Source: Escherichia coli
GTDB taxonomy: Bacteria > Pseudomonadota > Gammaproteobacteria > Enterobacterales > Enterobacteriaceae
Length of the DNA: 64,000 nt
Strand: one strand, 5' to 3'
NCBI RefSeq assembly: GCF_003019035.1
Contig: NZ_CP027447.1
Under the pieces are notes generated by a model, which made no database searches, had not been told where the DNA came from, and was given only the letters and a program-made list of their open reading frames with translations. Each line of letters opens with the position of its first letter. Position 1 is the stretch's first letter. A program made the position numbers and the translations under genes. Shown piece after piece: positions 11,123-64,000 of this stretch.

Positions 11123-12142
11123 TTAATCCCCCGTGGACACTGCGTGGACACTCACGCCACCTTTCAGCGGATTAAGGGCCACCGCATCCTGCAGGTAATC
11201 CGGTGCAAAATGTGCATATGCCATTGTTTGCTGAATGGTTGCGTGGCCAAGAATCTTCTGAAGCGCAATAATGTTTCCTCCGTTCATCACAAAATGGCTG
11301 GCGAACGTATGCCGCAGCACATGTGCAGCTTGGCCTTTTGGCAAATCGGGCTTAACTCTTTTCAGCGCCAGGCAGAATTCCCGGTACTTCACCTCAAACA
11401 AGCCGCCTGTTTCTCTGGTTTTGATCGCCTCACAAACTGCCTGCGAAATTGGCACTGTTCTCTTTCGGCCATTTTTGGTTTCAAGAAACGTTACACGGTT
11501 ATGAACTATCTGTTCACCACGAAGCTTACAAGCTTCACTCCAGCGCGCCCCCGTGCTTAAACACAAAAGCGCAACACGCCAGTAATCGCCCTCCAGTGTA
11601 TCGAGCAATAGCGCCACTTCCTTCTGGGACAGGAAAGCCATTTCTCGTGGAGATACATAAAGAATAGAAATTCCCCTTACCGGATGTTCTGCATCCCAGA
11701 GGCCTATTTTCTTCAGTATGGTAAACATTCCGGATAACCGATTCATGTATCTGTTAGCAGATGACGGTTTCAATCCATCAGCTATCTTTTGAGAACGCCA
11801 CGCGATAATTTTTAGCTTATCAAGATCCACAGCCTGCATATCAGCGCCAAGCTCATTGATTATGTTGCGCAGTTGTTTTCGGTCTTCTTCCGCCTTACGC
11901 CTGTGCTGGCCGTGATACATCCACCACAACTCAAGCAAATCATTTAGCGTTCGACGATCACGGTAGCCCTGTATATATTCCCGCTTTTCAGCGTTCGCCA
12001 TGATGTAGCGTTCAGTGGCCACCGCTACCGATTTTTTGTCAAATACCTTACGCACGCGCTTTCCCTTGCGTCCGTTCGGCCTGATGTCCAGCAAATAACG
12101 ACCATCTTCGAGCTTCTTAATCGACATTGCGAAGCCCTCCAA
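11123..12142 (-). CDS. int: Phage integrase (tyrosine recombinase, P2 Int-like)
   Basis: 339 aa; C-terminal catalytic HxxR ... Y motif (HVLRHTFAS ... MAYAHF); adjacent to att core. Confidence 0.9.
   Translation of the reverse strand: MEGFAMSIKKLEDGRYLLDIRPNGRKGKRVRKVFDKKSVAVATERYIMANAEKREYIQGYRDRRTLNDLLELWWMYHGQHRRKAEEDRKQLRNIINELGADMQAVDLDKLKIIAWRSQKIADGLKPSSANRYMNRLSGMFTILKKIGLWDAEHPVRGISILYVSPREMAFLSQKEVALLLDTLEGDYWRVALLCLSTGARWSEACKLRGEQIVHNRVTFLETKNGRKRTVPISQAVCEAIKTRETGGLFEVKYREFCLALKRVKPDLPKGQAAHVLRHTFASHFVMNGGNIIALQKILGHATIQQTMAYAHFAPDYLQDAVALNPLKGGVSVHAVSTGD
11138..11150. repeat. attL core (CACTGCGTGGACA), inside the last codons of int
   Basis: exact 13-bp repeat (17/18 with flank) also at 46825-46837. 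Confidence 0.5.
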
Positions 12143-15241: not shown

Positions 15242-15563
15242 GAAACCAGAACATGCACACACAAAAAAACCGCTTGCCATGCCGCAATCAGTCAGGTTAC
15301 ATTTCCGCTGCACCTCACAAAACGGGTGCCGGGTTTCGCAGCCTGCTGACTACACAAGCGCACAACCGCGCCAGCGGTTTTTTTGTGCGTACTGTATTGC
15401 CACGTTTTTTTCGCGTCAGAATTATGGCGGGGCGTACGGGGCCGACTTCGGTCGGGCCGGGTTCTTGTGTAGCCGGTACTGCGAACCTCGTACGTCTCGC
15501 CACCCACAGTTTCGCAGCTCTGGATGGTGAGTTTTCACAACTTACTACACAAGGGGCCACACC

Positions 15564-15866: not shown

Positions 15867-16256
15867 ATGATTGACGCTCATGACTTCACAAGATGGGTGC
15901 GCACACAGGACACCCGTCTGGCTCCCGTTCTTCAGGGATTATTTGATCTCTACATCCGTGGTCGTGACAACAGAGCACGCACCACAAAACCAGAGAATGC
16001 AGACACCCTTTATTTCACAGTAGACGACTGCTACCGCGTGGACTTCACACCACACGGGCTGGCGTTGCACTGCCTGACACCACACGGCGAATCACTACTG
16101 GCTTATTACGACTCCCCGGCCTCCGTATTTGCGGCAATGCTGGCGCATCGCACTGCTGGCGGGTGTGCCTCGCTGAGTGAATACACCGCTGAATTTAACC
16201 GCCTTTCCACCCTCTTCTCGCAGGAGTGGCAGCGCGTGACGGGATACCAGCCATGA
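15867..16256 (+). CDS. Hypothetical protein (early region)
   Basis: 129-aa ORF, stop overlaps gpA start. Confidence 0.5.
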   Translation: MIDAHDFTRWVRTQDTRLAPVLQGLFDLYIRGRDNRARTTKPENADTLYFTVDDCYRVDFTPHGLALHCLTPHGESLLAYYDSPASVFAAMLAHRTAGGCASLSEYTAEFNRLSTLFSQEWQRVTGYQP

Positions 16257-19093
16257 GTGAGTTTGCATGGAGCTGGAATGAACCACGGCCAGCCATTGAT
16301 CCAGCCAGATTTACGGAGCACAGGCAGGAAACTGAAACCGACCTGCAACGCGCCATCCGTTACTACCTTGAGGCGGACAAAAGGGCACAGAAAGAACAGG
16401 AAGCAAAGGAAGAAGCCTTTTTCGCACAATCCGCCATGGGTAAAAAACTCATGGCATCCCATGAGGAAGCCGGACAGCGTGAAAAGCTGGCACAGAGCAT
16501 CATCAGTAAGCGCCGGGCAACAGAACAAGACCCGGTAGCCCGTGCCTTTGCCACACTGAAGGCGCTTCCCGTTTATCTGCGAGAACCTCTGAGCCGCCAC
16601 CTCTCTTTCCTGCGCAAGAAGCAGGAAGCCGATCGTCAGAAAGGCAAAAAGAGCTGGCAGGCGGAACGCTATGCACGCGGAACCCTGCGCAAAATATTCG
16701 AACGTCTGGACCGCACCGACAGCCGCTGGCTGACACCGGGTTATCGCTCTCTTGCCGGACGCGAACGCCTGGACGATTTGCTTTACCTGCCGCAGCTCAA
16801 CAAACACCAGATACAGACGCTGGCCACCATGACGGCGGCGATGTTCAGCAGCACCTTCGAAAAACTCTGCGATGGCTTTGGCGCGACTGATGGCGAACTG
16901 ACCATGGATGTAACGCTGAAGGCGTATCAGATGCTGGCCCGCATGGCGTTACACCTGCACATCATGCCTCCACATTATGACGCACTGACAACAGATAAAG
17001 ACCGGAGGAACGAACCGGACACGGAGCTGCTGCCGGGCGCAATCCTTCGCCTGACCTGTGCGGAATGGTGGAAACGCAAACTGTGGCTGTTACGTTGCGA
17101 GTGGAGAGAAGAACAACTCCGCGCCGCCTGTCTGGTTTCCAGAAAAACATCACCCTATCTGAGCCAGGACGCGTTAAGCGAGTTTCGCGCACAGCGCGAG
17201 AAAACACGCGATTTCCTGAAAAGTTTCATGCTGGAAAATGAAGACGGGTTCACGATTGATCTCGAGACGGTGTATTACGCGGGAGTAAGTAACCCGGTTC
17301 ACCGTAAGGCAGAAATGATGGCCACCATGAAGGGACTGGAACTTCTGGCCGAAGCCCGTGGCGACAGAGCGGTGTTTCTGACTGTCACCTGCCCGTCAAA
17401 ATACCACGCAACAACGGAGAACGGTCATCCGAACCCCAAATGGAACGGGGCCACCATGCGCGACTCCAGCGATTACCTGGTTAACACGTTTTTTGCGGCG
17501 GTCCGCAAAAAACTGAACCGCGACGGCCTGCGCTGGTATGGCATCCGCACGGTGGAGCCTCACCATGACGGCACCGTGCACTGGCACATGATGGTCTTTG
17601 CTCATCCAGAAGAAATCGACAGCATCGTGGCCATCACCCGCGATATTGCCATTCAGGAAGACCGCCACGAGCTGGGCAATGATATTACTCCGCGCTTTAA
17701 GGTGGAGTATGTCGACGGCTCAAAAGGCACACCAACCAGCTACATCGCCACCTACATCGGAAAGAACCTGGACAGCCGCGCCGTGGATGGCATCGACCCG
17801 AAAACGGGCAAGCCACGCGTTGACCACGAAACCGGAAAATCAATGGCCGAGAGCGTGGAACGCGCCATCGGCTGGGCGCGCCTTCACCGGGTCCGCCAGT
17901 TCCAGTTCTTTGGTATCCCCTCCCGTCAGGTGTGGCGTGAACTGCGCCGCCTTGCCAGCCAGATGGCACGCAACCCGGAAGGCCCGCAACGGCTGAAGGA
18001 TGACGCAATGGACGCGGTACTCGCTGCCGCTGATGCCGGATGTTTTGCCACCTACATTGAGAAACAGGGTGGCGTACTTGTTCCACGCAAAGACTACCTG
18101 ATTCGCACCGCCTACGACCTCGCAGATGAGCTGAACGATTACGGCGAGCAGAGTGTACAGATTTACGGGATCTGGTCGCCGCTCATCGGGGAGTCTTCCC
18201 GCGTGTGCACGCACCCGGATAACTGGAAGCTGGTAAGACGTAAACCGGAAGCGGAAGACAGCGCCCGCGAAAATGGTTTTGACCTTCAGGGCGGCCCTGC
18301 CGCCCCTTGGACTCGTGGCAATAACTGTCCCCGTGTACAGGAAACGGACAACAACGGGACAGAACAGCCGGAAGAACGGCCAGCACCGTGGCCGCAGCTC
18401 CCTGACGGCGTTGAAGTGAACGAATGGATGCGCTCACTGAAACGGCACGAACGCCGGGCGCTGATGCGTTCGCTTCGTGACAAACAGGCAAAAAACAGCA
18501 GTGATGAAATGCAGAGCTGGACACAGAGCCGCAAACAGCAGCGGCCTTTGCCTGATAACCACGAATTACTCGCTAAAGAATGGCGGGAGTCTGCTGAATC
18601 TCTCGGCCTGCATATCGGTGAACAGCAGATGCAGCACCTGTTACGGGGCGGCAGTCTGTACGTTGACGGCAGCATCATTGCACCGCAGGGATTTGAAATT
18701 GTACGCAAACCGGATACCCGACCGGACAGCCGGATCACGCAGCTCTGGCAGCGCCTGAGCCGTAACCACGGCGTAAGCAGCACGGAGATCCGCCATAACC
18801 CGGTCGCCAGCTATCTGGAACAGCTGGCGGCATCAGACCCCGAAGCCGCCGCACGCCTGGCATCCACACTTCAGCAAGACCAGAACACCATGAAAACACC
18901 CGTTACCGTGCTTTCTGACATGCTGCGCGCCATCCGCGACGCAGAGCACGCACAGAGAATCAGTGAAACCACTGAACGCGCCCGCCGCAAAGCAGACCTG
19001 CTGCGGGGTGGCCTGACCATTGGAAACAAAAAACAGACAGAAACGGGATTCACAAATCCCGTAAATGAGCAAAAAACGCGCCGCGATATATGA
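16253..19093 (+). CDS. Replication initiation endonuclease (P2 gpA-like rolling-circle initiator)
   Basis: 946 aa from MSEFAWSW; conserved HHDGTVHWHMMVF region of the phage replication endonuclease family; longer than P2 gpA (C-terminal extension). Confidence 0.85.
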   Translation: MSEFAWSWNEPRPAIDPARFTEHRQETETDLQRAIRYYLEADKRAQKEQEAKEEAFFAQSAMGKKLMASHEEAGQREKLAQSIISKRRATEQDPVARAFATLKALPVYLREPLSRHLSFLRKKQEADRQKGKKSWQAERYARGTLRKIFERLDRTDSRWLTPGYRSLAGRERLDDLLYLPQLNKHQIQTLATMTAAMFSSTFEKLCDGFGATDGELTMDVTLKAYQMLARMALHLHIMPPHYDALTTDKDRRNEPDTELLPGAILRLTCAEWWKRKLWLLRCEWREEQLRAACLVSRKTSPYLSQDALSEFRAQREKTRDFLKSFMLENEDGFTIDLETVYYAGVSNPVHRKAEMMATMKGLELLAEARGDRAVFLTVTCPSKYHATTENGHPNPKWNGATMRDSSDYLVNTFFAAVRKKLNRDGLRWYGIRTVEPHHDGTVHWHMMVFAHPEEIDSIVAITRDIAIQEDRHELGNDITPRFKVEYVDGSKGTPTSYIATYIGKNLDSRAVDGIDPKTGKPRVDHETGKSMAESVERAIGWARLHRVRQFQFFGIPSRQVWRELRRLASQMARNPEGPQRLKDDAMDAVLAAADAGCFATYIEKQGGVLVPRKDYLIRTAYDLADELNDYGEQSVQIYGIWSPLIGESSRVCTHPDNWKLVRRKPEAEDSARENGFDLQGGPAAPWTRGNNCPRVQETDNNGTEQPEERPAPWPQLPDGVEVNEWMRSLKRHERRALMRSLRDKQAKNSSDEMQSWTQSRKQQRPLPDNHELLAKEWRESAESLGLHIGEQQMQHLLRGGSLYVDGSIIAPQGFEIVRKPDTRPDSRITQLWQRLSRNHGVSSTEIRHNPVASYLEQLAASDPEAAARLASTLQQDQNTMKTPVTVLSDMLRAIRDAEHAQRISETTERARRKADLLRGGLTIGNKKQTETGFTNPVNEQKTRRDI

Positions 19094-21565: not shown

Positions 21566-22612
21566 TCAGGATGTGGGCTGGGTATCTAACAGTGCGTAAG
21601 GGTTAAAGCGGATCACCTCTTCGCCAAGCCAGTCATTGATGTGCTTCATGGCCTCCATGACGGGCATCAGCTCGTTAATTGCGTAAACCCGCGCGGCCTT
21701 CTCCACATCACCAAACGCACTTTTTTCGCCCGGCATCGCCCCCATCAGTTGCGGCGGAACGCGGTGCGCAGCCAGCACATCATCACGGGATGCCGCCTTA
21801 ACATTCATGAACTCATCTTTTGCGGTGATCTGCTGGAACGGCAAAATTTGCACCCCCTCTTTGCCCCCGTTGGGCGCATGAATGAGCACGTTTTTAAACG
21901 CACCACCACCACGTGCCCCCTGTAGCGTTTCTTTCAGGGAGTCCATGCTTTCGCGGTTTACCTGCGCTGCACCGATGTAGATGATGCACCCGGCGTGGGA
22001 TCCGTTGTCGTAGTACAGTTTTCTGAACATGTCCGCTGAATGAGAAAGGCTGGCCGAGAGTAATGCGCCAAGATATTCCGGCATGCCGTAGATTTCCTGG
22101 TTAATATCCGGATTCATCAGGTGGCACACTTTGCCAGGACGAAACTGGAACGCGTCCTTGCCATCCTGCACATACCACCATGATTCAAGATCGCTTCCGC
22201 GTCGCATGTATTTCGCCAGGGCGTGCCGTAATTTAAGCGGTTCGCCGAGCATATTGCTTCGAAGCTCAAGGAATGCGTTACCGAACACAAACCAGTCCAG
22301 CGCCAGCGCCGAGAAATCCTGCCGGGAAAGCAGCGGGTGCGGGATGTAGCAACCGAGTAATACATTGCGCTTAAAGTAAAGCGCAGACTGATGCCAGGAC
22401 GTTTGCCGGGCAGCTCTTGCCAGACCGTACCAGTCCACCGGGGTTTCATACCACCGCCCGTTATCAGCACAGTACATATTGTCCAGCAGGTCATGCCCGG
22501 TCAGGCGATAAGGACCATCAAATGTGAATGCACTGAGCGATGATTCTTTCCTGAGCGCATCAGCGAGATCAATGCGTGAACTCATGCGCACTTTTTTATT
22601 TTTTCTGCTCAT
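21566..22612 (-). CDS. Portal protein (P2 gpQ-like)
   Basis: 348 aa; position and size as P2 Q, co-oriented and coupled with terminase gene. Confidence 0.9.
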   Translation of the reverse strand: MSRKNKKVRMSSRIDLADALRKESSLSAFTFDGPYRLTGHDLLDNMYCADNGRWYETPVDWYGLARAARQTSWHQSALYFKRNVLLGCYIPHPLLSRQDFSALALDWFVFGNAFLELRSNMLGEPLKLRHALAKYMRRGSDLESWWYVQDGKDAFQFRPGKVCHLMNPDINQEIYGMPEYLGALLSASLSHSADMFRKLYYDNGSHAGCIIYIGAAQVNRESMDSLKETLQGARGGGAFKNVLIHAPNGGKEGVQILPFQQITAKDEFMNVKAASRDDVLAAHRVPPQLMGAMPGEKSAFGDVEKAARVYAINELMPVMEAMKHINDWLGEEVIRFNPYALLDTQPTS

Positions 22613-24363
22613 CAGAACTCCATAACCGTGAAACGCTCGTTTTCTCCTTCGCCGCCAATCGGTTCGTTAATGACAGCAAGCATGGTTGCCCACGCAAGGT
22701 CGCCGTGGCTGATCCCCCTCGCTCGGTCCGTTTCGTAAGTGATAAAGCCGCCCGGTGTTTTCACCTTACGCACGGCGTTAAAGGCCGCGACCAGCTCGCG
22801 TTCGGCGCGATCGTATTCCCACCGCCCGGCACGCATTATTTGCAGCATTTTCAGTACCAGCGACCGTTTTGATGACAGCGTGAAGGTGTACGGAATAGCA
22901 GCAGGGAAAAACCGCTTCACTATCTGATAAACAGCCTCCCCGTTCCCGCCCGTCACATCAATGCCGATGTGTTCCACGTTGTAGCGATACGTGAACTCTT
23001 CAATGACTCTGGCCTGTTCTTCAAACTCCAGCCCCTGAACGCGTCGCGTCTCCACCGTTCGAAAACGGCCACCAGGAACAGCCGGAGGAACCACCACGGA
23101 CACAGCGCCGCTGTCGCCGTTGCCACTACTGCCGTTTGCGTCATACCCAATCCATACCGGACGATTCCCCATCGGGCGGGGAGCAAAAGGTTTCCAGTCT
23201 TTCCAGTCGTCGTATCCGTCAACACCACAGCCAATCAGGATATTCAGGTTAAATGCCGATTCCCCTTCGCGGACAAACTCACACATATAGAGATTGAGGA
23301 ACTCGTCTTCGGTGTTTTCATCACGAATTTCATCAATATCGGTGTGTTTCCAGCCGTGATTAACCACATCTTCCAGCGTGACAATTTGCCGCCACGTCCG
23401 GTCAGGGCAGATAAGCCCGTTATGCAGCGTTTTCCAGTCCACAGAAAAACGCTGGCGTTTATGCGTGGCCTTTTTCTCGTTCCAGCGGTCGCCGTTCCAG
23501 TAGGCGTATGCCTCGTGCGTTTCGGTGGATGGCGTGGAGAAGTAGGTGCGCCGCAGTCCGCTGAGGGTTGCCATAGCGCCAGCCACCTTGCGCAGTTCAG
23601 CAAAGCGACTGACCCAGAAAAATTCATCAAAATAAAAATTGCCCGTATAGGACTGTGCCGACGCAGCAGAAGTGCCGAGAAAATGCAGCTCTGCGCCGTT
23701 GGAGAGGATGATTTTATCACCCCCTTTCAGCTCCACATCAACTTCAGCCGCGGCCTTCTGAATAATGCTTTTAAACTGGAACGCCTGACGACGCGACGCA
23801 GACAAAAAAATCTGGTTACGCTGGTAAGGTTGCGCCACATCGTCACGCAGCGCCATCAGCAGCGCTTCCTGTGCAAAATACCAGGTCGCCCCAATCTGTC
23901 GGGATTTCAGGATCATCCTGTTACGTATCCCGGCTTCCCTGCAAAGGGTCAGGGAGTCAAACCAGCCCCGCTGATGCCACTCCAGCCTGCTGATGATTTT
24001 TTCCCGCAGTGCGGCAATCTGTTCCGGCGTGAAATGATTTTTGAGTTTTTTCGCCCGGCCTTTCTTTCCTGCGGCCATCACATCCGGCTGGCCATCATGC
24101 AGCTTTTTAAGCTGCCGGGTCAGCAGGTCTATTTCCTTAAAGTCACCGCCTGTTTTATTCTGTTTTTCAGTAAGCTGGATGAGGCGCGCATCGATGGACT
24201 GCGTGACACGCTGCACGGGTGGCGTTTCATCCCACTGGTCACGTTTTTTCCACGCATAAATCGTGTTCGGGTTTATTCCCATCAGACGTGATATTTCTGC
24301 GGGCGGATAACCCTGCCAGTAAAGTTGCCGCGCACGCTGGCGCACAAAAGCGTCCTGAATCAT
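22612..24363 (-). CDS. Terminase large (ATPase) subunit (P2 gpP-like)
   Basis: 583 aa; P-Q leftward operon divergent from capsid operon as in P2. Confidence 0.9.
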   Translation of the reverse strand: MIQDAFVRQRARQLYWQGYPPAEISRLMGINPNTIYAWKKRDQWDETPPVQRVTQSIDARLIQLTEKQNKTGGDFKEIDLLTRQLKKLHDGQPDVMAAGKKGRAKKLKNHFTPEQIAALREKIISRLEWHQRGWFDSLTLCREAGIRNRMILKSRQIGATWYFAQEALLMALRDDVAQPYQRNQIFLSASRRQAFQFKSIIQKAAAEVDVELKGGDKIILSNGAELHFLGTSAASAQSYTGNFYFDEFFWVSRFAELRKVAGAMATLSGLRRTYFSTPSTETHEAYAYWNGDRWNEKKATHKRQRFSVDWKTLHNGLICPDRTWRQIVTLEDVVNHGWKHTDIDEIRDENTEDEFLNLYMCEFVREGESAFNLNILIGCGVDGYDDWKDWKPFAPRPMGNRPVWIGYDANGSSGNGDSGAVSVVVPPAVPGGRFRTVETRRVQGLEFEEQARVIEEFTYRYNVEHIGIDVTGGNGEAVYQIVKRFFPAAIPYTFTLSSKRSLVLKMLQIMRAGRWEYDRAERELVAAFNAVRKVKTPGGFITYETDRARGISHGDLAWATMLAVINEPIGGEGENERFTVMEF

Positions 24364-57597: not shown

Positions 57598-58149
57598 ATG
57601 AAAAAGAAAACAACACTTAGCGAGGAGGACCAGGCGCTGTTTCGCCAGTTGATGGCGGGGACTCGCAAGATTAAGCAGGACACGATTGTCCACCGACCGC
57701 AGCGTAAAAAAATCAGCGAAGTGCCGGTCAAGCGGTTGATTCAGGAGCAGGCCGATGCCAGCCATTATTTCTCTGACGAGTTTCAACCATTATTAAATAC
57801 CGAAGGTCCGGTGAAATATGTTCGCCCGGATGTCAGCCATTTTGAAGCGAAGAAACTGCGGCGCGGTGATTATTCACCGGAGCTGTTTTTGGATTTGCAC
57901 GGTTTGACGCAGCTGCAAGCCAAGCAGGAGTTAGGCGCATTGATTGCCGCCTGCCGCCGCGAACATGTGTTTTGCGCCTGTGTGATGCATGGTCATGGTA
58001 AGCATATTTTGAAGCAGCAAACGCCGCTGTGGCTGGCGCAACATCCCCATGTAATGGCATTTCATCAGGCACCGAAAGAGTACGGTGGTGATGCGGCATT
58101 GCTGGTGTTGATTGAAGTGGATGAATGGCTGCCGCCGGAATTGCCCTGA
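57598..58149 (+). CDS. smrB: Ribosome rescue endonuclease SmrB (Smr domain)
   Basis: 183 aa, C-terminal Smr domain ([15 protein letters not shown]). Confidence 0.9.
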
Positions 58150-58234
58150 CATCATGACGGGCATACGCTTTCACTGACAGACGTCGACGGTTAAGTGTAA
58201 GATTATCCAAACAGAACTCAACGCAGGGCACTCA

Positions 58235-59593
58235 ATGATGAATATCCGCACGCTTAAGCTCACTAATCTGGGGCGGTTTGAAGAACTTGACGTTCATCTG
58301 GCTCCAGTGGAGGAGTTCAAGAGCAATGTGACCGTTTTTATTGGTAATAATGGTGCAGGTAAAACATCAATATTAAAATCGTTGGCAACCAGCCTGAGTT
58401 GGTTCGTTGCCCGAGTTCGTACTGAAAAAGGTAACGGTAGCCCTATTCCTGAAGACGCTATTCTGAACGGTAGGAGTTCGGCGACAATTGAACTTCAGGT
58501 ACTGAATACGCATCCAGCGACGGAGGTCGCTACGCCCTACCGTTGGTTGCTTGCCAGAACGGCCAGTGGGAAAAAATCGACCACCGCCTCCAGCCTGCAA
58601 GAGGCCAGCCAATTGGCTGCGTTTTATCGAGATCAATACACCCAGAATAGCGGGGCATCCTTCCCGCTTATCGCCTTCTATCCCGTAGAACGTGTCGTGC
58701 TGGATGTGCCGTTGAAAATAAAAGAACGTCATAATTTTTTGCAACTGGATGGCTACGATAACGCCCTGAATCAGGGTATTGATTTCCGCCGTTTCTTTGA
58801 GTGGTTTCGCAATCGCGAAGATGCAGAAAATGAATCGGGCTTACCGCAAGACGTTCTGGATAAGCTCAGTACCAGGATAGATCTCGATAACGCCGTCTTA
58901 AATGCATTAACGGCAATCATGGCCTCGTCCCGGGATCGCCAGTTGACCGCCGTCAGAACGGCCATTAGTCGCTTTATGCCAGGGTTCAGCAACTTACGCG
59001 TCAGGCGTAAACCTCGCCTGCATATGTCGATAGATAAAAATGGCCAGACACTGAATGTGCTGCAATTATCGCAGGGTGAAAAATCACTGATGGCGTTAGT
59101 CGGCGATATTGCTCGCCGCCTGGCAATGATGAACCCGATGTTAGAAAACCCGCTAAACGGCGAGGGAATTGTATTAATTGATGAAGTGGACATGCACCTG
59201 CATCCAACATGGCAGCGTACAATCATCCAGCGTCTGACGACAACATTCCCACATTGCCAGTTTGTCTTAACAACCCACTCTCCTTTAGTGATCAGTGATT
59301 GCAAAGATGTGCTGGTTTATTCTCTGGATGATGGCGAATTAACGCAGCTCCCGTCTCTGTATGGGCAAGATGCGAATACTGTGCTTTTGAATGTGATGGA
59401 TACGGATATTCGCAATGCGACAGTGGCAGAAAAACTTAACGATCTTTTGGATCTGATTCAGAAAAACGACTTTATCAACGCTAACGCTCTTCTGAATACG
59501 CTAAGCCTGGAACTTCCTGAAAACCATCTTGAACTGGTGAAAGCCAGAATGCTTCTGCGCAAACAGGAAATTAAACATGCGCGAAATAACTAA
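58235..59593 (+). CDS. ABC-type (AAA_15/21-like) ATPase, PtuA-like
   Basis: Walker A GNNGAGKTS near N-terminus; Walker B LIDEVDMHLHP and H-loop TTHSP near C-terminus. Confidence 0.7.
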   Translation: MMNIRTLKLTNLGRFEELDVHLAPVEEFKSNVTVFIGNNGAGKTSILKSLATSLSWFVARVRTEKGNGSPIPEDAILNGRSSATIELQVLNTHPATEVATPYRWLLARTASGKKSTTASSLQEASQLAAFYRDQYTQNSGASFPLIAFYPVERVVLDVPLKIKERHNFLQLDGYDNALNQGIDFRRFFEWFRNREDAENESGLPQDVLDKLSTRIDLDNAVLNALTAIMASSRDRQLTAVRTAISRFMPGFSNLRVRRKPRLHMSIDKNGQTLNVLQLSQGEKSLMALVGDIARRLAMMNPMLENPLNGEGIVLIDEVDMHLHPTWQRTIIQRLTTTFPHCQFVLTTHSPLVISDCKDVLVYSLDDGELTQLPSLYGQDANTVLLNVMDTDIRNATVAEKLNDLLDLIQKNDFINANALLNTLSLELPENHLELVKARMLLRKQEIKHARNN

Positions 59594-60236
59594 AGGGCAA
59601 CCGCCGGCCAGTTTGCAACAGTGGGTGAGAGCAAAACCACGGGATAAAAATGCCAATCAGTGGTTTCAGGAACTTTATGCGCAAAAAAAATGGGATATCG
59701 TTGGCGATCTCAGCCAGCAGTGCGCTCAGGAGCAATTTTATCTCTGTGCTTATTGCTGCGATCGCGTGACAGGTACAAACCGCGATACCGTTAATGAACA
59801 TGTCGAAGCCAGGGATTTAGCCCCTGCTCGCAGTCTGGAATTCACCAATATCGTTGCAAGCTGCAAAACAAAAGGCCAGTGTGACGACTCGCATAAGAAC
59901 CAGCCATTGCTGTTAACGCCGCTTATGCCGGAATGTGAAACCGAGTTTATCTTCAAGATCAGTGGTCGAATTGAAGGGACGACGCCGAAAGCTATCGATG
60001 CGATTAAGGTACTCAACCTTGGCGATAGTGAACGTAATAATCGGGCATTGATTGAAAAACGTAAGCAGCTTTCCGACAGCCTTCTGTGGGCTAATGGCAT
60101 TGACCCTTCAGAGGGGCTTGAGGATGACGACCTGCTGCAAGCGGTTATCGACGAATTACTCACCCCCGTCGACGGTTATCTGGCACCTTTCGCTCCCGTG
60201 GTGGCGAATATTCTAAAAAACTGGATGACCGCATGA
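59577..60236 (+). CDS. HNH-family nuclease, PtuB-like
   Basis: CAYCCDR ... NEHVEA ... ASCKTKGQCDDSHKN fits the HNH Cys/His/Asn signature; overlaps the ATPase gene by 17 nt. Confidence 0.7.
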   Translation: MREITKGQPPASLQQWVRAKPRDKNANQWFQELYAQKKWDIVGDLSQQCAQEQFYLCAYCCDRVTGTNRDTVNEHVEARDLAPARSLEFTNIVASCKTKGQCDDSHKNQPLLLTPLMPECETEFIFKISGRIEGTTPKAIDAIKVLNLGDSERNNRALIEKRKQLSDSLLWANGIDPSEGLEDDDLLQAVIDELLTPVDGYLAPFAPVVANILKNWMTA

Positions 60237-60247
60237 CATAACGGACA

Positions 60248-60265
60248 ACGGGGCCAGATGGCCCC
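60248..60265. terminator. Hairpin between convergent HNH gene and yfcO
   Basis: CGGGGCC-AGAT-GGCCCCG GC-rich stem. Confidence 0.45.
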
Positions 60266-60284
60266 GCGTCGTGTGGTGTATGCG

Positions 60285-61130
60285 CTACAGTTCGTTGAGC
60301 GTGTACTGGAAGCGGCAAGTAGAATCAATCGGCTGCCTGCTGCTGGTATCCACCTGCACCACCATGTCGTGCAGTTGTTTGTCCGTAATGGGGTGCCGGT
60401 TGGGCGTAACCGTAACGCTTGAACTGTCGCAGCCGGAGGTGGAGAACGTGATCATCTCTGCCACAAAGCGGCAGTACGCACCGCGTTCATCCATCTGGCT
60501 GCCGTCGCAAAGCCTGCCGTTTTCCATCAGGAAGGTCGGGAGCGTTTTCTCAATTATGCCGCCCGTCGACTGTAATGACAGCACCTTCGTATACGAAATG
60601 TAATCCTCACTCCACGAAATATCATAGGTGGCCACTGAGACCGGGCAGGTCGAGTTACGCGCCTGCGGGCCGATATAGGGGCCCATTGTTTTTTCTAACG
60701 GCGCAGAACTCTCATTATACGTTGTGACCAGCCATGGGCAGCCATGCACGTCGGCATCATAATAAACGTCGATAGGCATATCGTAACAATCCCACTTGGT
60801 TTTATCCGATTGTTGATCATACTCAGCAAGCCCAGGACAGTTTGACAACGATGTTAAAACAAAATAATTCGAATATAAACTGGGCGGGGTATCACTCCCT
60901 GTCCAGCTAATATTTTCCAGATAACCCACTTGCAACGTGGTGGTGGAGTTCTTATACACACCATGCATAACACCGTCGGGGGTAAGAATATCAAGGTGGT
61001 ATCTGATTTGCGTATTGTAACTGGAAATGCCCGAAATCGTATGCAACGTGGCAATCTTTTTCGCCGCCTGCGCGCCCTCCCCCGCAAACATCAGCAGTAA
61101 CAAACAGGTTATCAAACGGAATATTTTCAT
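60285..61130 (-). CDS. yfcO: YfcO (DUF2544 fimbrial-cluster protein)
   Basis: signal peptide; last gene of the yfc fimbrial operon; start taken at MKIFRL. Confidence 0.7.
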   Translation of the reverse strand: MKIFRLITCLLLLMFAGEGAQAAKKIATLHTISGISSYNTQIRYHLDILTPDGVMHGVYKNSTTTLQVGYLENISWTGSDTPPSLYSNYFVLTSLSNCPGLAEYDQQSDKTKWDCYDMPIDVYYDADVHGCPWLVTTYNESSAPLEKTMGPYIGPQARNSTCPVSVATYDISWSEDYISYTKVLSLQSTGGIIEKTLPTFLMENGRLCDGSQMDERGAYCRFVAEMITFSTSGCDSSSVTVTPNRHPITDKQLHDMVVQVDTSSRQPIDSTCRFQYTLNEL

Positions 61131-61131
61131 A

Positions 61132-61662
61132 TCAAAGGTACTCAAACGTTGCGGTTAAAGAAGCGGTAAACTCACCCATCGTCACTTCCCGGCCGCTTTT
61201 CGCCTGGAGCCAGGCATTAAAATTCAGATTGTTATCACCGTTACTCAGCACAAAGGTCGCGCCGCTGGTGTTGTTAATCGGCACCGCCGTTCCGTCGGTT
61301 TTTTCCATCCCAATCCCCACGCCCTGCGCCCCAGAGGAGGCATCCAGCGCCAGAAAACCGGGCTGCTCGCTGTCTTCCGTACCGGTCAGCGTCACCCGGA
61401 CCTGATACTCGGCTGGCCCTTTACAATCTTTCAGCTGAAACACCACCGGCACCCGCGCCGACTGCCCGGTCACCATCAGGTCTTTACGGCTGATGGTGGG
61501 GAAATGCACCTCCGCCAGCGTTTCGCCCTGAATCACCAGCGTGCAGGACTTACTGAGTAAATTGCCGTAGAAATGCAGGTTGTCAGCCGCCTGTGTCGTG
61601 CCGCCGTACGCCAGCAGCGCCGCCAGCGCCGCGTAGCGGTAATGTGTGCGAGTCAGATTCAT
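61132..61662 (-). CDS. yfcP: Fimbrial-like protein YfcP
   Basis: 176 aa, signal peptide, pilin-like size, C-terminal beta-strand ending in aromatic residue. Confidence 0.75.
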   Translation of the reverse strand: MNLTRTHYRYAALAALLAYGGTTQAADNLHFYGNLLSKSCTLVIQGETLAEVHFPTISRKDLMVTGQSARVPVVFQLKDCKGPAEYQVRVTLTGTEDSEQPGFLALDASSGAQGVGIGMEKTDGTAVPINNTSGATFVLSNGDNNLNFNAWLQAKSGREVTMGEFTASLTATFEYL

Positions 61663-62138
61663 TGGTAATCCACCGTTAAGGTTGCCCAGGCAGAGAAGTT
61701 CCCTTCACTGAGCGCCGCGTCGCTGGCTTTTACCGGCACCGCGGTCAGCGTCGGCGGGCTCGCCGGGTCTATTTTCAACTGTTCGCCCACTTTAAACGGC
61801 TGGCCGTTTTGCTGAAGCTCAATCCCCAGGCCAGCGACGTCGGTTTCAATGGCGGCGTCATCGTAACTGGTCTGGTGACCCGTCCAGGTCAGGCTCATCT
61901 CCCAGGCGTCGTCGCGCACATCAGGATCGCAGGTGATGGTGTAAGGCACGTCCTGGCGGAAGTTGTCGCCGTTGATGTTGTCGATGATCACGTTGCTGAA
62001 CGCCACTTCAATGCTCTTACCGTCGCTGATGGTACAGGCGGGCGGCGAAACCAGCGTGCCGTGAAAAGTAACGTCGTTAACCGCGGCCTGCGACAGGCCA
62101 GCAAAACCGTAAAGTAAGCACCACGCGAGTCGTTTCAT
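61659..62138 (-). CDS. yfcQ: Fimbrial-like protein YfcQ
   Basis: 159 aa pilin-like with signal peptide. Confidence 0.75.
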   Translation of the reverse strand: MKRLAWCLLYGFAGLSQAAVNDVTFHGTLVSPPACTISDGKSIEVAFSNVIIDNINGDNFRQDVPYTITCDPDVRDDAWEMSLTWTGHQTSYDDAAIETDVAGLGIELQQNGQPFKVGEQLKIDPASPPTLTAVPVKASDAALSEGNFSAWATLTVDYQ

Positions 62139-62638
62139 TGGTAGTCCACCACCATGGTCATGGTCGCGTTAAACTCCGATGCCATCAGTTCCACACCGCT
62201 CTGCTTCACCGGAACAGCTTCGAAGTCTGGCTGAGTACTGGTTTTGAACGGCAGCCAGCTGCTGTTGCCCACGGCCACCAGCGAATGGTCGGTGGCATTC
62301 TGAATGCGAATGCCGAAGCCATCGATCCCGGTACTCAGTACCGTTTCACCATTAATTGTGGTGGTGGTGGCCTGAAGCTGCATTCGCAGGTCGTCGCTGA
62401 CGCTGTTTGAACAGTTCATGGTGTAGCCCACCGGCTGACGGTAGTTAGTGCCATTAATGCCTTTAATGACCACACTGCCGAACTCCACCGCGCTTCCCTG
62501 TATCGAGCAGGGCGGTGGCCCATCCACCAGCACGCGCAGCGTCAGGTTGACGATTTTGCCGCCCGCCATTGCCGGGGAAACGGTCGCGCCACAGGCCAGC
62601 AGTAGCGCGGCAGACCCGGCCAGAAAGAACGCTTTCAT
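62135..62638 (-). CDS. yfcR: Fimbrial-like protein YfcR
   Basis: pilin-like; start taken at MKAFFLAGSAALL. Confidence 0.75.
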   Translation of the reverse strand: MKAFFLAGSAALLLACGATVSPAMAGGKIVNLTLRVLVDGPPPCSIQGSAVEFGSVVIKGINGTNYRQPVGYTMNCSNSVSDDLRMQLQATTTTINGETVLSTGIDGFGIRIQNATDHSLVAVGNSSWLPFKTSTQPDFEAVPVKQSGVELMASEFNATMTMVVDYQ

Positions 62639-62654
62639 GTTGCTTCTCCCGTTA

Positions 62655-63407
62655 TCAGCCTTTGCTGCTTTGATCTTCATCCACCTTGCAGGTGTCCCCT
62701 TCACAGCGGAAGATCAGCGGCAGGCGCGCGCCGTAGTCGTTGATGTAGGTCAGCACCGGGGCGCTGTCCATTTTTGCCTTTAACGGCTGTGACGTTTTCG
62801 GCGACATCACCAGCGGTTTAAACCCGGCGGCGGTCGGCCCTTTCTTCTGTGTGCTGGCATCGCTGATGATGACGTGGTATGGCGTCGGGTTATTGACGGT
62901 ATAGTCCTGGCCGCTGCGCGTGAGCGTCACCTTAAACTGCCACGGTTTTCTCATGTCGATCTTCTCCAGCGCCTTTGGTCGCCAGAACAGCTTGATGCGC
63001 GTTTGCAGGGCAATTTGCAGAGTGTTGGCTTTCCCGGTCTTTGGCGGGATCTCACGCACGTTGTAGTAGAACAGGCTTTCGCGGTCAGACGGCAGCGTGT
63101 GAATGTCCGGCAGCGCCTGAATCTTCACCTGGCCGTTCATCATGGCGTCAATACGCTGCACCGGCGGCAGTACCGCCAGCGGCGAGGTGATTTTGTTGCC
63201 CTTCTCGTCTTCCAGCCAGCTTTGCGCCAGGTAAGGCAGCTTTTCGTTGTTGTTACGCAACGTCACGCTGATCGATTTATCGCCTTCGTTAAACACCAGA
63301 CGGGTGCGGTCCGGGGTGACCGAGGCGTGCGCCGCCAGGCTGACGGTGGAAAGCAGTGCCGCCAGCGCCGTGCTGACGACCATTGAACTGGATAATTTAT
63401 AAGACAT
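62655..63407 (-). CDS. yfcS: Periplasmic pilus chaperone (PapD-like)
   Basis: 250 aa from MSYKLSSS; immunoglobulin-like chaperone fold signatures. Confidence 0.8.
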   Translation of the reverse strand: MSYKLSSSMVVSTALAALLSTVSLAAHASVTPDRTRLVFNEGDKSISVTLRNNNEKLPYLAQSWLEDEKGNKITSPLAVLPPVQRIDAMMNGQVKIQALPDIHTLPSDRESLFYYNVREIPPKTGKANTLQIALQTRIKLFWRPKALEKIDMRKPWQFKVTLTRSGQDYTVNNPTPYHVIISDASTQKKGPTAAGFKPLVMSPKTSQPLKAKMDSAPVLTYINDYGARLPLIFRCEGDTCKVDEDQSSKG

Positions 63408-63426
63408 TGATCGTTCCTTAATCAGA

Positions 63427-64000
63427 TTATTGAGTAGCTGAAATTGACGTCGGCGCTTCCGTTGGTGTGACTTGCCGCGTCTGGTCCTGAATAACAGGTT
63501 TAATTTCTGGCGCTGAAGAATCAGGGGCTGCCGTTCCCTTTTGTTCACACGGCAACAACAGGCCGCTGAACAGATCGGCAGGTAGCGGCTTCGGCAATAC
63601 GATCTCGCATTGTGCGCTGCCTTCCCAGAATACCGTCATATGCTCACCCGCATTGACTCCCGCCAGATAGACATTGCCTTCATCATCCACAATGCCAACC
63701 TGCTGCTGCTCGTCGTTTTTCACTTCCGCGCCAAACGGCGGGTAGCTGCCGTCACGCAACCGCAGTACCGCCATCGCTTTTTGCCCGCTGATCACTTTGA
63801 ATTTGCGATAGCCAATTGCACCTTCCGTCAGGGTTGCCTGTACCACCGACTGGGTGGCTTCCGCATCTTCCGGCAGGTTGTTTAAATCGATATACGCCTG
63901 ATTGCGATAGTAGTTGTTAATATCGGCGACCACCGCCTTGCCAAACATATTGGTGTACACCGGCGCGCCGTTGCTTTCGACCGGCACGTCAGCAATCCCG
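63427..64000 (-). CDS. yfcU: Fimbrial usher, C-terminal part (gene continues beyond window end)
   Basis: usher C-terminal domain directly upstream of the chaperone gene; truncated by the window. Confidence 0.7.
   Translation of the reverse strand, partial: GIADVPVESNGAPVYTNMFGKAVVADINNYYRNQAYIDLNNLPEDAEATQSVVQATLTEGAIGYRKFKVISGQKAMAVLRLRDGSYPPFGAEVKNDEQQQVGIVDDEGNVYLAGVNAGEHMTVFWEGSAQCEIVLPKPLPADLFSGLLLPCEQKGTAAPDSSAPEIKPVIQDQTRQVTPTEAPTSISATQ

What the first reader, a model, noticed from the sequence alone, without database searches (positions are those of the whole stretch)
58235..60284. Two-gene ABC-ATPase plus HNH nuclease island (Septu-like) between smrB and the yfc fimbrial operon
A 452-aa ATPase (Walker A GNNGAGKTS; Walker B LIDEVD; H-loop TTHSP) overlaps by 17 nt a 219-aa protein with an HNH-type Cys/His/Asn signature. 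This architecture matches the Septu (PtuA/PtuB) anti-phage system. As far as I recall smrB and yfcO are adjacent in E. coli K-12, so this looks like a strain-specific insertion without an integrase or flanking repeats that I can see. Subtype and activity are undetermined.
Basis: partly seen in the sequence, partly recalled or inferred. Interest (0 to 1): 0.65.

Follow-up and report, generated by a model that had tools for sequence, protein, structure and literature searches.

The report
Known Septu (PtuAB) anti-phage gene pair
This is a two-gene Septu anti-phage system (ATPase PtuA plus HNH nuclease PtuB) between smrB and yfcO; it was catalogued at this E. coli locus in 2023, and a 99%-identical allele was shown in 2026 to stop phages by cutting tyrosine tRNA, so it is real but already known.

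Summary
There is a 452-aa ABC-type ATPase (58235-59593) and a 219-aa HNH protein (59577-60236). They overlap by 17 nt and lie between smrB and yfcO, which are 70 bp apart in K-12.

The Septu interpretation is also correct. PADLOC PtuA1 and PtuB1 models match full-length (E=3.6e-168 and 2.2e-94). No reverse transcriptase or ncRNA is adjacent, and PtuA lacks the N-terminal extension of retron PtuA.

The system is not new:
- **Function.** The pair is an allele of "Septu EcB88" (Nat Commun 2026, PMC13096335). PtuA is identical at 396 of 399 compared residues and PtuB at 217 of 219, with the same smrB-flanking DNA. That paper showed defence against T5-like and T-even phages, loss of defence with K43A, D316A, H75A or N91A, and infection-dependent cleavage of the tRNA-Tyr variable loop.
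- **Locus.** A 2129-bp "yfcO-yfcN" Septu island with no mobile element is listed in Hochhauser et al. 2023.

Small additions from this work:
- 183 of 5,426 complete E. coli genomes carry the pair, always at this locus.
- 47 of those have a 198-bp microhomology deletion that removes the PtuA C-terminus.
- About 475 further genomes, including Nissle 1917, keep only a ptuB 3' remnant.

Novelty: already known. Interest is low.

The parts
58174..58203 (+). Sigma-70-like promoter candidate (CTGACA-18 nt-TAAGAT) in the 85-nt smrB-ptuA spacer
   Evidence: Consensus scan only; the number of such hits in the region is no higher than in shuffled sequence. Indirect support: the EcB88 clone with 300-bp native flanks defends from its own promoter (PMC13096335).
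58235..59593 (+). ptuA: 452-aa ABC-type (SMC/Rad50/OLD-like) ATPase. Walker A is at 58343-58366 (K43), signature LSQGE at 59066-59080, Walker B at 59168-59191 (D316/E317), H-loop at 59270-59284. The C-terminal about 55 residues (59427-59590) correspond to the PtuB-binding C-terminal extension.
   Evidence: PADLOC PtuA1 E=3.6e-168 over residues 2-450; Pfam AAA_21/AAA_23/SMC_N/AAA_15; PDB matches to retron Ec83 PtuA (216 bits), Ec78 PtuA (about 164) and stand-alone Septu PtuA 8EE4 (116); 396/399 identical to PtuA of Septu EcB88, WP_000981116.1.
59577..60236 (+). ptuB: 219-aa HNH nuclease. The HNH/zinc-finger core C57...H106 is at 59745-59894, with catalytic H75 and N91. It overlaps ptuA by 17 nt, and an AGGAAA Shine-Dalgarno-like sequence lies inside the end of ptuA.
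   Evidence: PADLOC PtuB1 E=2.2e-94 over residues 1-218; NCBIfam retron PtuB E=1.3e-26, below cutoff; no Pfam hit; 217/219 identical to PtuB of Septu EcB88, WP_016243072.1.
60244..60270 (.). GC-rich hairpin (core GGGGCCAGATGGCCCC) between the convergent ptuB and yfcO genes; probably a shared transcription stop
   Evidence: RNA fold of 60237-60290 gives -25.9 kcal/mol on the plus strand and -23.0 on the minus strand. A homologous hairpin sits at the same place in K-12, which lacks the pair. The simple terminator scan did not call it because there is no clean T-run.
59427..59613 (+). Segment lost (198 bp, between GCRACAGTGG microhomologies) in 47 of the 183 carrier genomes. The loss truncates PtuA after residue 397 and removes the first 12 residues of PtuB. 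The segment is intact in this window.
60012..60236 (+). 3' part of ptuB that survives as a non-coding remnant (94-96% identical) in about 475 genomes lacking the pair, such as Nissle 1917 and AF22

Best explanation
This is a stand-alone type I Septu anti-phage system, and an allele of the published Septu EcB88. PtuA (an ABC ATPase) and PtuB (an HNH nuclease) are made from one short operon, probably with translational coupling through the 17-nt overlap. They form a complex in which the C-terminal extensions of a PtuA dimer hold PtuB. In uninfected cells the complex is silent. On infection by T5-like or T-even phages it is activated by a trigger that has not been identified. [quoted passage not shown] Translation stalls, the infected cell stops growing, and phage yield collapses, which resembles abortive infection. 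Both the ATPase site (K43, D316) and the HNH site (H75, N91) are required. What is shown here: gene anatomy, family membership, near-identity to the tested allele, and absence of retron parts. What is taken from the literature on the 99%-identical allele: defence, mutant phenotypes and tRNA-Tyr cleavage. What is inferred from structures of homologues: the architecture of the complex.
For: ORFs and motifs. PADLOC PtuA1/PtuB1 match full-length. PDB relatives are PtuA proteins. Identity to Septu EcB88: PtuA differs at 3 of 399 stored residues (D19E, V98A, I228L) and PtuB at 2 of 219 (K138R, V198I). The cloned fragment starts inside smrB and aligns to window 57939-58337 with 7 mismatches in 399 nt. 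[quoted passage not shown] The role of the PtuA C-terminal extension in holding PtuB comes from PMC12819146. No RT or ncRNA is adjacent. The locus is listed as Septu, yfcO-yfcN, 2129 bp, no mobile element, in PMC10121019.
Against: Nothing was tested in the strain this window comes from, and five amino-acid substitutions separate it from the tested allele (none at a catalytic residue). The last 53 residues of EcB88 PtuA were cut from the stored supplement and could not be compared. Direct cleavage of tRNA by purified PtuAB of this clade has not been shown in the papers read. The related Ec78 PtuAB nicks supercoiled DNA in vitro, and the ATCC 25922 Septu is reported to act on DNA, so tRNA cleavage might be indirect. 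The trigger is unknown.
Confidence: 0.9

Rival explanations
1. It is Septu, but the primary biochemical activity is ATP-regulated nicking of DNA (phage or host), as reported for the stand-alone Septu of E. coli ATCC 25922. On this view tRNA-Tyr cleavage is a downstream or indirect consequence.
For: PMC12819146 reports that released Ec78 PtuAB nicks supercoiled plasmid in vitro and does not cut RNA oligonucleotides, that stand-alone PtuAB nicking is reduced by ATP, and suggests DNA damage might lead to tRNA fragmentation. PMC11555353 says the ATCC 25922 Septu targets DNA.
Against: For the near-identical EcB88 allele, cleavage is site-specific (C48/A49), and supplying extra tRNA-Tyr rescues the phage. 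That makes tRNA-Tyr loss the cause of defence. By score, the window PtuA is further from the ATCC 25922 PtuA (116 bits) than from the retron PtuAs (216 and 164 bits), and retron-Eco7 also targets tRNA-Tyr.
Confidence: 0.12
2. It is the effector half of a type I-A retron (like Ec78/Eco7 or Ec83) and depends on a reverse transcriptase and msDNA encoded elsewhere.
For: The best PDB matches are retron Ec83 and Ec78 PtuA. NCBIfam retron Ec78 PtuA and PtuB models hit (E=1.1e-104 and 1.3e-26). PADLOC ATPase_I-A scores 381 bits.
Against: Both NCBIfam scores fall below the curated cutoffs (351 vs 500; 94 vs 150). The matches start at residue about 60-73 of the retron proteins and at position 53 of the I-A profile, so the N-terminal extension that binds RT and ncRNA is missing, and about 25-30 residues are missing around residues 200-235 (PMC12819146). 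The neighbours are smrB and yfcO, with no RT ORF and no Rfam RNA. The EcB88 clone carrying only ptuAB and 300-bp flanks defends in DH10B.
Confidence: 0.02
3. The copy in this window is a decaying, non-functional relic of a Septu system.
For: The locus is clearly eroding across the species. 47 of 183 carriers have a 198-bp deletion that removes the PtuA C-terminal extension, and about 475 genomes keep only 225 nt of ptuB.
Against: Both ORFs are full-length here, all catalytic residues are intact, and the proteins are about 99% identical to an allele shown to be active.
Confidence: 0.05
4. It is an unrelated ABC/SMC-like ATPase-nuclease pair, such as a DNA-repair Rad50/RecF-like pair, OLD/Gabija or PARIS.
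For: There are weak hits to Rad50, RecF and DndD (N-terminal P-loop region only) and to AriA and an OLD-family protein in the PDB (E=1e-6 to 1e-4).
Against: Those hits score 15-36 bits and cover only the ATPase motifs, against 558 bits full-length for PtuA1. The partner is an HNH protein, not a TOPRIM protein.
Confidence: 0.01

Closest known systems
Septu EcB88 (PtuA WP_000981116.1, PtuB WP_016243072.1) of E. coli JBBDAGI-19-0041; Nat Commun 2026;17:3468 (PMC13096335)
   Same: Same locus: the cloned fragment starts in smrB. Same gene lengths (452 and 219 aa), same 17-nt overlap architecture and same catalytic residue numbering (K43, D316; H75, N91). PtuA is 396/399 identical and PtuB 217/219.
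   Different: Five conservative substitutions (PtuA D19E, V98A, I228L; PtuB K138R, V198I) and 7 of 399 nt differences in the left flank. The last 53 PtuA residues were not available for comparison.
Retron type I-A effectors PtuAB (retron Ec78/Eco7 and Ec83; PDB 9KJX, 9E8Z and others)
   Same: ABC ATPase plus HNH nuclease pair. These are the closest solved relatives of PtuA (216 and about 164 bits). The signature motif LSQGE is shared with Ec83. Retron-Eco7 has the same in vivo target, the tRNA-Tyr variable loop.
   Different: There is no RT, ncRNA or msDNA. PtuA lacks the N-terminal extension of about 60-66 residues and about 25-30 residues in the helical region, which PMC12819146 assigns to RT/ncRNA and msDNA binding. 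Scores fall below the NCBIfam equivalog cutoffs.
Stand-alone Septu of E. coli ATCC 25922 (PDB 8EE4/8EE7), the 'inflammasome-like' PtuAB oligomer
   Same: Two-gene stand-alone ptuA-ptuB system with no N-terminal extension; it blocks T5.
   Different: It is much more distant in sequence: PtuA 116 bits, and PtuB is only marginally detectable pairwise (E=0.22). It is reported to nick DNA, to be inhibited by ATP, to lack ATPase activity and to have Leu at the signature-motif position where this PtuA has Glu (E282). It lies at a different chromosomal location, in a roughly 20-kb island listed in PMC10121019.
yfcO-yfcN Septu island catalogued in Hochhauser et al. 2023, PLoS Genet (PMC10121019, supplementary table)
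   Same: Same flanking genes (yfcN is smrB). Same size (2129 bp listed; 2135 bp between smrB and yfcO here). Called Septu, with no mobile element, and not counted as a hotspot.
   Different: That entry is a catalogue line for E. coli ECONIH1 and other strains, with no functional or evolutionary analysis.

Membership tests
Septu type I (PtuA + PtuB) | PtuA: ABC-type ATPase (AAA_15/AAA_21) matched by PtuA profile models over its full length | tested here: met
   PADLOC PDLC00271 PtuA1 E=3.6e-168, residues 2-450 on profile 1-420/421; Pfam AAA_21, AAA_23, SMC_N, AAA_15.
Septu type I (PtuA + PtuB) | PtuB: HNH nuclease matched by PtuB profile models, with H-N-H and zinc-binding Cys residues | tested here: met
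   PADLOC PDLC00344 PtuB1 E=2.2e-94, residues 1-218 on profile 1-212/213. C57/C60, H75, N91, C96/C102 and H106 are present. Pfam HNH models do not hit, so the HNH assignment rests on the PtuB models, the motif, the partial alignment to the Ec83 HNH and published H75A/N91A data.
Septu type I (PtuA + PtuB) | The two genes are adjacent and co-oriented, with no obligatory third component | tested here: met
   17-nt overlap; the neighbours are smrB and yfcO. The same ptuA-ptuB overlap is seen in Sodalis and Aeromonas homologues.
Septu type I (PtuA + PtuB) | Confers phage resistance that depends on both the ATPase and nuclease sites | not testable with these tools
   Shown experimentally for the 99%-identical allele Septu EcB88 (PMC13096335), not for this strain.
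Retron type I-A (RT + ncRNA + PtuA + PtuB) | Reverse transcriptase gene and msr/msd ncRNA immediately upstream of ptuA | tested here: not met
   Upstream is smrB, then prmB, aroC and mepA. No RT is annotated in the identical region of SCU-301. Rfam finds no RNA in or near the island.
Retron type I-A (RT + ncRNA + PtuA + PtuB) | PtuA N-terminal extension (binds RT/ncRNA) and helical flap/m-loop (bind msDNA) | tested here: not met
   Alignments begin at residue 60-73 of the retron PtuAs and at position 53 of the PADLOC I-A profile. The retron proteins are 90-100 residues longer and have an extra block between window residues about 200 and 235. Roles of these elements are taken from PMC12819146.
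Retron type I-A (RT + ncRNA + PtuA + PtuB) | Score above the NCBIfam equivalog cutoffs NF041760 (PtuA) and NF041761 (PtuB) | tested here: not met
   351 bits against a cutoff of 500; 93.8 bits against a cutoff of 150.
OLD / Gabija GajA / PARIS AriAB (ABC ATPase + TOPRIM) | TOPRIM nuclease domain or partner | tested here: not met
   There is no TOPRIM hit. The partner is an HNH protein. AriA and OLD match only around the Walker B region, at E=1e-6 to 1e-4.

The most novel reading that the evidence does not exclude
The position of the pair, 85 nt downstream of smrB on the same strand, might be functional. Cutting tRNA-Tyr would stall ribosomes at Tyr codons and cause collisions, and SmrB is the nuclease that senses collided ribosomes, so Septu and SmrB might cooperate in shutting down translation during infection. 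A second, milder possibility is that this clade is the stand-alone lineage from which retron I-A effectors were recruited, because it shares their tRNA-Tyr target and is their closest stand-alone relative by score.
Probability: 0.05. Interest if true: 0.5.

Novelty: already known. Interest (0 to 1): 0.1.

Why it matters
It matters little as a discovery. The system type was defined in 2018. This island was catalogued at yfcO-yfcN in 2023, and a 99%-identical allele was dissected functionally in 2026. It is still useful for annotation: RefSeq labels the two genes only as 'AAA family ATPase' and 'hypothetical protein', although they form a tested tRNA-Tyr-cleaving Septu system. The population picture found here has modest interest for how small, non-mobile defence loci are gained and lost in E. 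coli. The pair is intact in 136 genomes, carries a likely inactivating deletion in 47, and is reduced to a remnant in about 475, always at one locus linked to divergent yfc fimbrial alleles.

Tried and rejected
- **Pfam on PtuB.** It gave no hit even at E<=10, so Pfam alone would leave PtuB 'hypothetical'. The PtuB-specific profiles were needed.
- **Pairwise PDB search with PtuB.** It gave only marginal hits (E=0.1-0.2 to the Ec83 HNH and to 8EE7 PtuB) and spurious VCP-like ATPase hits, which I discarded.
- **Flanking repeats as integration scars.** The only candidate spanning the island is a 12-nt exact repeat, CGTCGACGGTTA (58182-58193 and 60167-60178). By my own estimate about 0.3 such matches are expected by chance in 3.3 kb, and it does not coincide with any observed deletion boundary, so I treat it as chance.
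- **Mobile carriers.** tblastn against plasmids and phages found nothing above about 68% identity and no E. coli plasmid copy. Spread on a plasmid or phage is therefore rejected for this allele.
- **Adjacency to smrB in other genera.** The Sodalis and Aeromonas schubertii homologues sit in unrelated contexts, one of them next to a type I R-M system. The smrB linkage looks specific to E. coli.
- **SCU-301 as the source strain.** It is identical over the island but lacks the prophage present in the window, so the source strain remains unidentified.
- **Structure prediction.** I did not run it. Solved homologues and published mutagenesis already settle the fold and the active sites.

Full report
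**Observation**

The two ORFs exist exactly as described: 58235..59593 (+, 452 aa) and 59577..60236 (+, 219 aa), overlapping by 17 nt. The quoted motifs are present:
- PtuA has Walker A GNNGAGKTS (K43), signature LSQGE (278-282), Walker B LIDEVD (D316/E317) and H-loop TTHSP (346-350).
- PtuB has C57-x2-C60, E74-H75, N91 and C96-x5-C102-x3-H106, a typical zinc-binding HNH layout.

An AGGAAA Shine-Dalgarno-like sequence for the second gene lies inside the end of the first, which is consistent with translational coupling. The pair has lower GC (0.481; GC3 about 0.50) than the upstream core genes (0.551; GC3 0.59-0.61).

The flanks are smrB (57598..58149, +) and yfcO (60285..61145, -), the last gene of the yfc fimbrial operon. 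In K-12 MG1655 smrB and yfcO are 70 bp apart.

**Family assignment**

- PADLOC models give near full-length matches: PtuA1 PDLC00271 at E=3.6e-168 (residues 2-450) and PtuB1 PDLC00344 at E=2.2e-94 (residues 1-218).
- Pfam sees only generic ABC/SMC ATPase domains in PtuA (AAA_21, AAA_23, SMC_N, AAA_15) and nothing in PtuB.
- NCBIfam's retron-Ec78 PtuA and PtuB equivalog models hit but stay below their curated cutoffs (351 vs 500 bits; 94 vs 150 bits).
- Among solved structures the best matches are retron Ec83 PtuA (216 bits), retron Ec78/I-A PtuA (about 164 bits) and the stand-alone Septu PtuA 8EE4 (116 bits).

The alignments to the retron proteins start at their residue 60-73, and an extra block is present in them between window residues about 200 and 235. 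The PADLOC I-A ATPase profile is matched only from position 53. PMC12819146 assigns the N-terminal extension to RT/ncRNA binding and the helical flap and m-loop to msDNA binding, and states that these elements are absent from stand-alone PtuA.

No RT gene or Rfam RNA is near the pair. It is therefore a stand-alone type I Septu system, not a retron effector module.

**The system is already characterised**

A literature search led to Nat Commun 2026;17:3468 (PMC13096335), which studies 'Septu EcB88' from the clinical E. coli strain JBBDAGI-19-0041. Its mutants (PtuA K43A and D316A; PtuB H75A and N91A) carry exactly the residue numbers of the window proteins.

Supplementary Data 8 of that paper gives the cloned DNA and the protein sequences:
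- PtuA differs from the window protein at 3 of the 399 residues stored (D19E, V98A, I228L).
- PtuB differs at 2 of 219 (K138R, V198I).
- The first 399 nt of the cloned fragment begin inside smrB and align to window 57939-58337 with 7 mismatches.

So this is the same locus and the same system, as a slightly different allele.

The paper reports the following:
- The pair, with 300-bp flanks and its native promoter, protects DH10B against Demerecviridae (T5-like) phages and against T4 and, partially, T6, but not T2.
- Each of the four point mutants abolishes defence.
- Growth is retarded at high MOI and phage yield drops, which resembles abortive infection.
- E. coli tRNA-Tyr is cleaved at C48/A49 in the variable loop, and only after infection.
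- Extra tRNA-Tyr rescues the phage, and T6 escapes by SegB-driven amplification of its own tRNA-Tyr gene.
- The trigger was not found; the tail sheath was excluded.

The locus itself was catalogued earlier. The supplementary table of Hochhauser et al. 2023 (PMC10121019) lists a 'yfcO-yfcN' island (yfcN is smrB) of 2129 bp in E. coli ECONIH1, with mobile element 'None', not a hotspot, and system 'Septu'.

**Mechanism**

The most likely mechanism is the published one. A PtuA-PtuB complex stays silent until infection. An ATPase-dependent step then licenses the HNH nuclease, tRNA-Tyr is cut in the variable loop, translation stalls, and the infected cell does not yield phage.

The complex architecture (PtuB held by the C-terminal extensions of a PtuA dimer) is inferred from structures of homologues (PMC12819146).

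One uncertainty is real. Ec78 PtuAB nicks supercoiled DNA in vitro and did not cut RNA oligonucleotides, and the ATCC 25922 Septu is reported to act on DNA and to be inhibited by ATP. Direct tRNA cleavage by purified PtuAB of this clade is therefore still to be shown.

At the signature-motif position where Ec78 has Q361 and, according to PMC12819146, the ATPase-inactive ATCC 25922 PtuA has Leu, this PtuA has Glu (E282, LSQGE), as Ec83 does.

**Population and history of the locus (my additions)**

Of 5,426 complete E. coli genomes, 183 carry the pair. It is always single-copy, chromosomal and at this locus.
- 136 have an intact ptuA/ptuB junction.
- 47 have a 198-bp deletion between GCRACAGTGG microhomologies. 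It truncates PtuA after residue 397, removing the C-terminal extension that binds PtuB, and removes the first 12 residues of PtuB. This variant is predicted to be inactive, which is an inference.
- A further 475 or so genomes, including Nissle 1917, NU14 and AF22, keep only the last 225 nt of ptuB (94-96% identical). It is joined on the left to about 48 bp of sequence homologous to the intergenic sequence of genomes without Septu.

Other genomes have 70 bp (K-12) or about 170 bp containing REP-like sequence (XJ6-3, strain 142).

The window's core genes become steadily more divergent from K-12 towards the locus: mepA 96.8%, aroC 95.1%, prmB 95.9%, smrB 92.0% and the yfc operon about 70%. Most E. 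coli smrB genes are only 90-95% identical to this one. The pair is therefore embedded in a divergent smrB-yfc haplotype that probably moves by homologous recombination rather than on a mobile element.

No integrase and no convincing flanking repeats were found. No close copy exists on plasmids or phages.

Outside E. coli, PtuA homologues of 442-461 aa at 65-75% identity are common in Proteobacteria. Their ptuB overlaps in the same way but their contexts are unrelated, for example next to a type I R-M system in Aeromonas schubertii.

**Verdict**

The finding is a correct recognition of a system that is already catalogued and already characterised experimentally. Novelty is 'already known' and interest is low.

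Noticed in passing
window about 11100-46900: A roughly 36-kb P2-like prophage appears to sit between pdxB and flk. It has an integrase-sized ORF at 11123-12142 and portal/terminase-sized ORFs at 21566-24363. Strain SCU-301, which is identical over the Septu island, goes straight from pdxB to flk, so the window comes from another strain.
   Followed up: partly
window 15310-15507: Rfam finds isrK (15310-15384, 64 bits) and C4 antisense RNA (15420-15507, 83 bits) side by side on the + strand inside the prophage-like region.
   Followed up: no
window 45984-46775: A 263-aa ORF near the right end of the prophage-like region matches PADLOC type II DNA methyltransferase models (MTase_II, E=2.5e-63). 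No partner nuclease was looked for. Six other ORFs of the element, including the integrase-sized one and a 955-aa ORF at 16226-19093, had no PADLOC hit.
   Followed up: partly
window 57598-58149 (smrB) and 60285-63548 (yfcO to yfcS): The smrB allele is only about 92% identical to that of most E. coli (4,855 genomes fall at 90-95%). The yfc fimbrial operon is about 70% identical to K-12's and 85-95% to Nissle's. This is a highly divergent haplotype around the island, with divergence rising towards it.
   Followed up: partly
L002:3953-4271 (Nissle 1917) and L006:3553-3871 (AF22): The ptuB remnant in genomes without Septu is joined on its left to about 48 bp that resemble the 'empty-site' intergenic sequence of XJ6-3 and strain 142, not the window's smrB-ptuA spacer. 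The event that made this junction (deletion, or illegitimate recombination between occupied and empty alleles) is unresolved.
   Followed up: partly
window 58182-58193 and 60167-60178: A 12-nt exact direct repeat, CGTCGACGGTTA, occurs in the smrB-ptuA spacer and again near the 3' end of ptuB (1985 nt apart). It is probably chance and matches no observed deletion boundary.
   Followed up: partly
L007:3553-3719 and L008:3553-3722: In some E. coli the smrB-yfcO spacer holds REP/BIME-like palindromic sequence (GCCGGATGCGGCG...) instead of the Septu pair.
   Followed up: no
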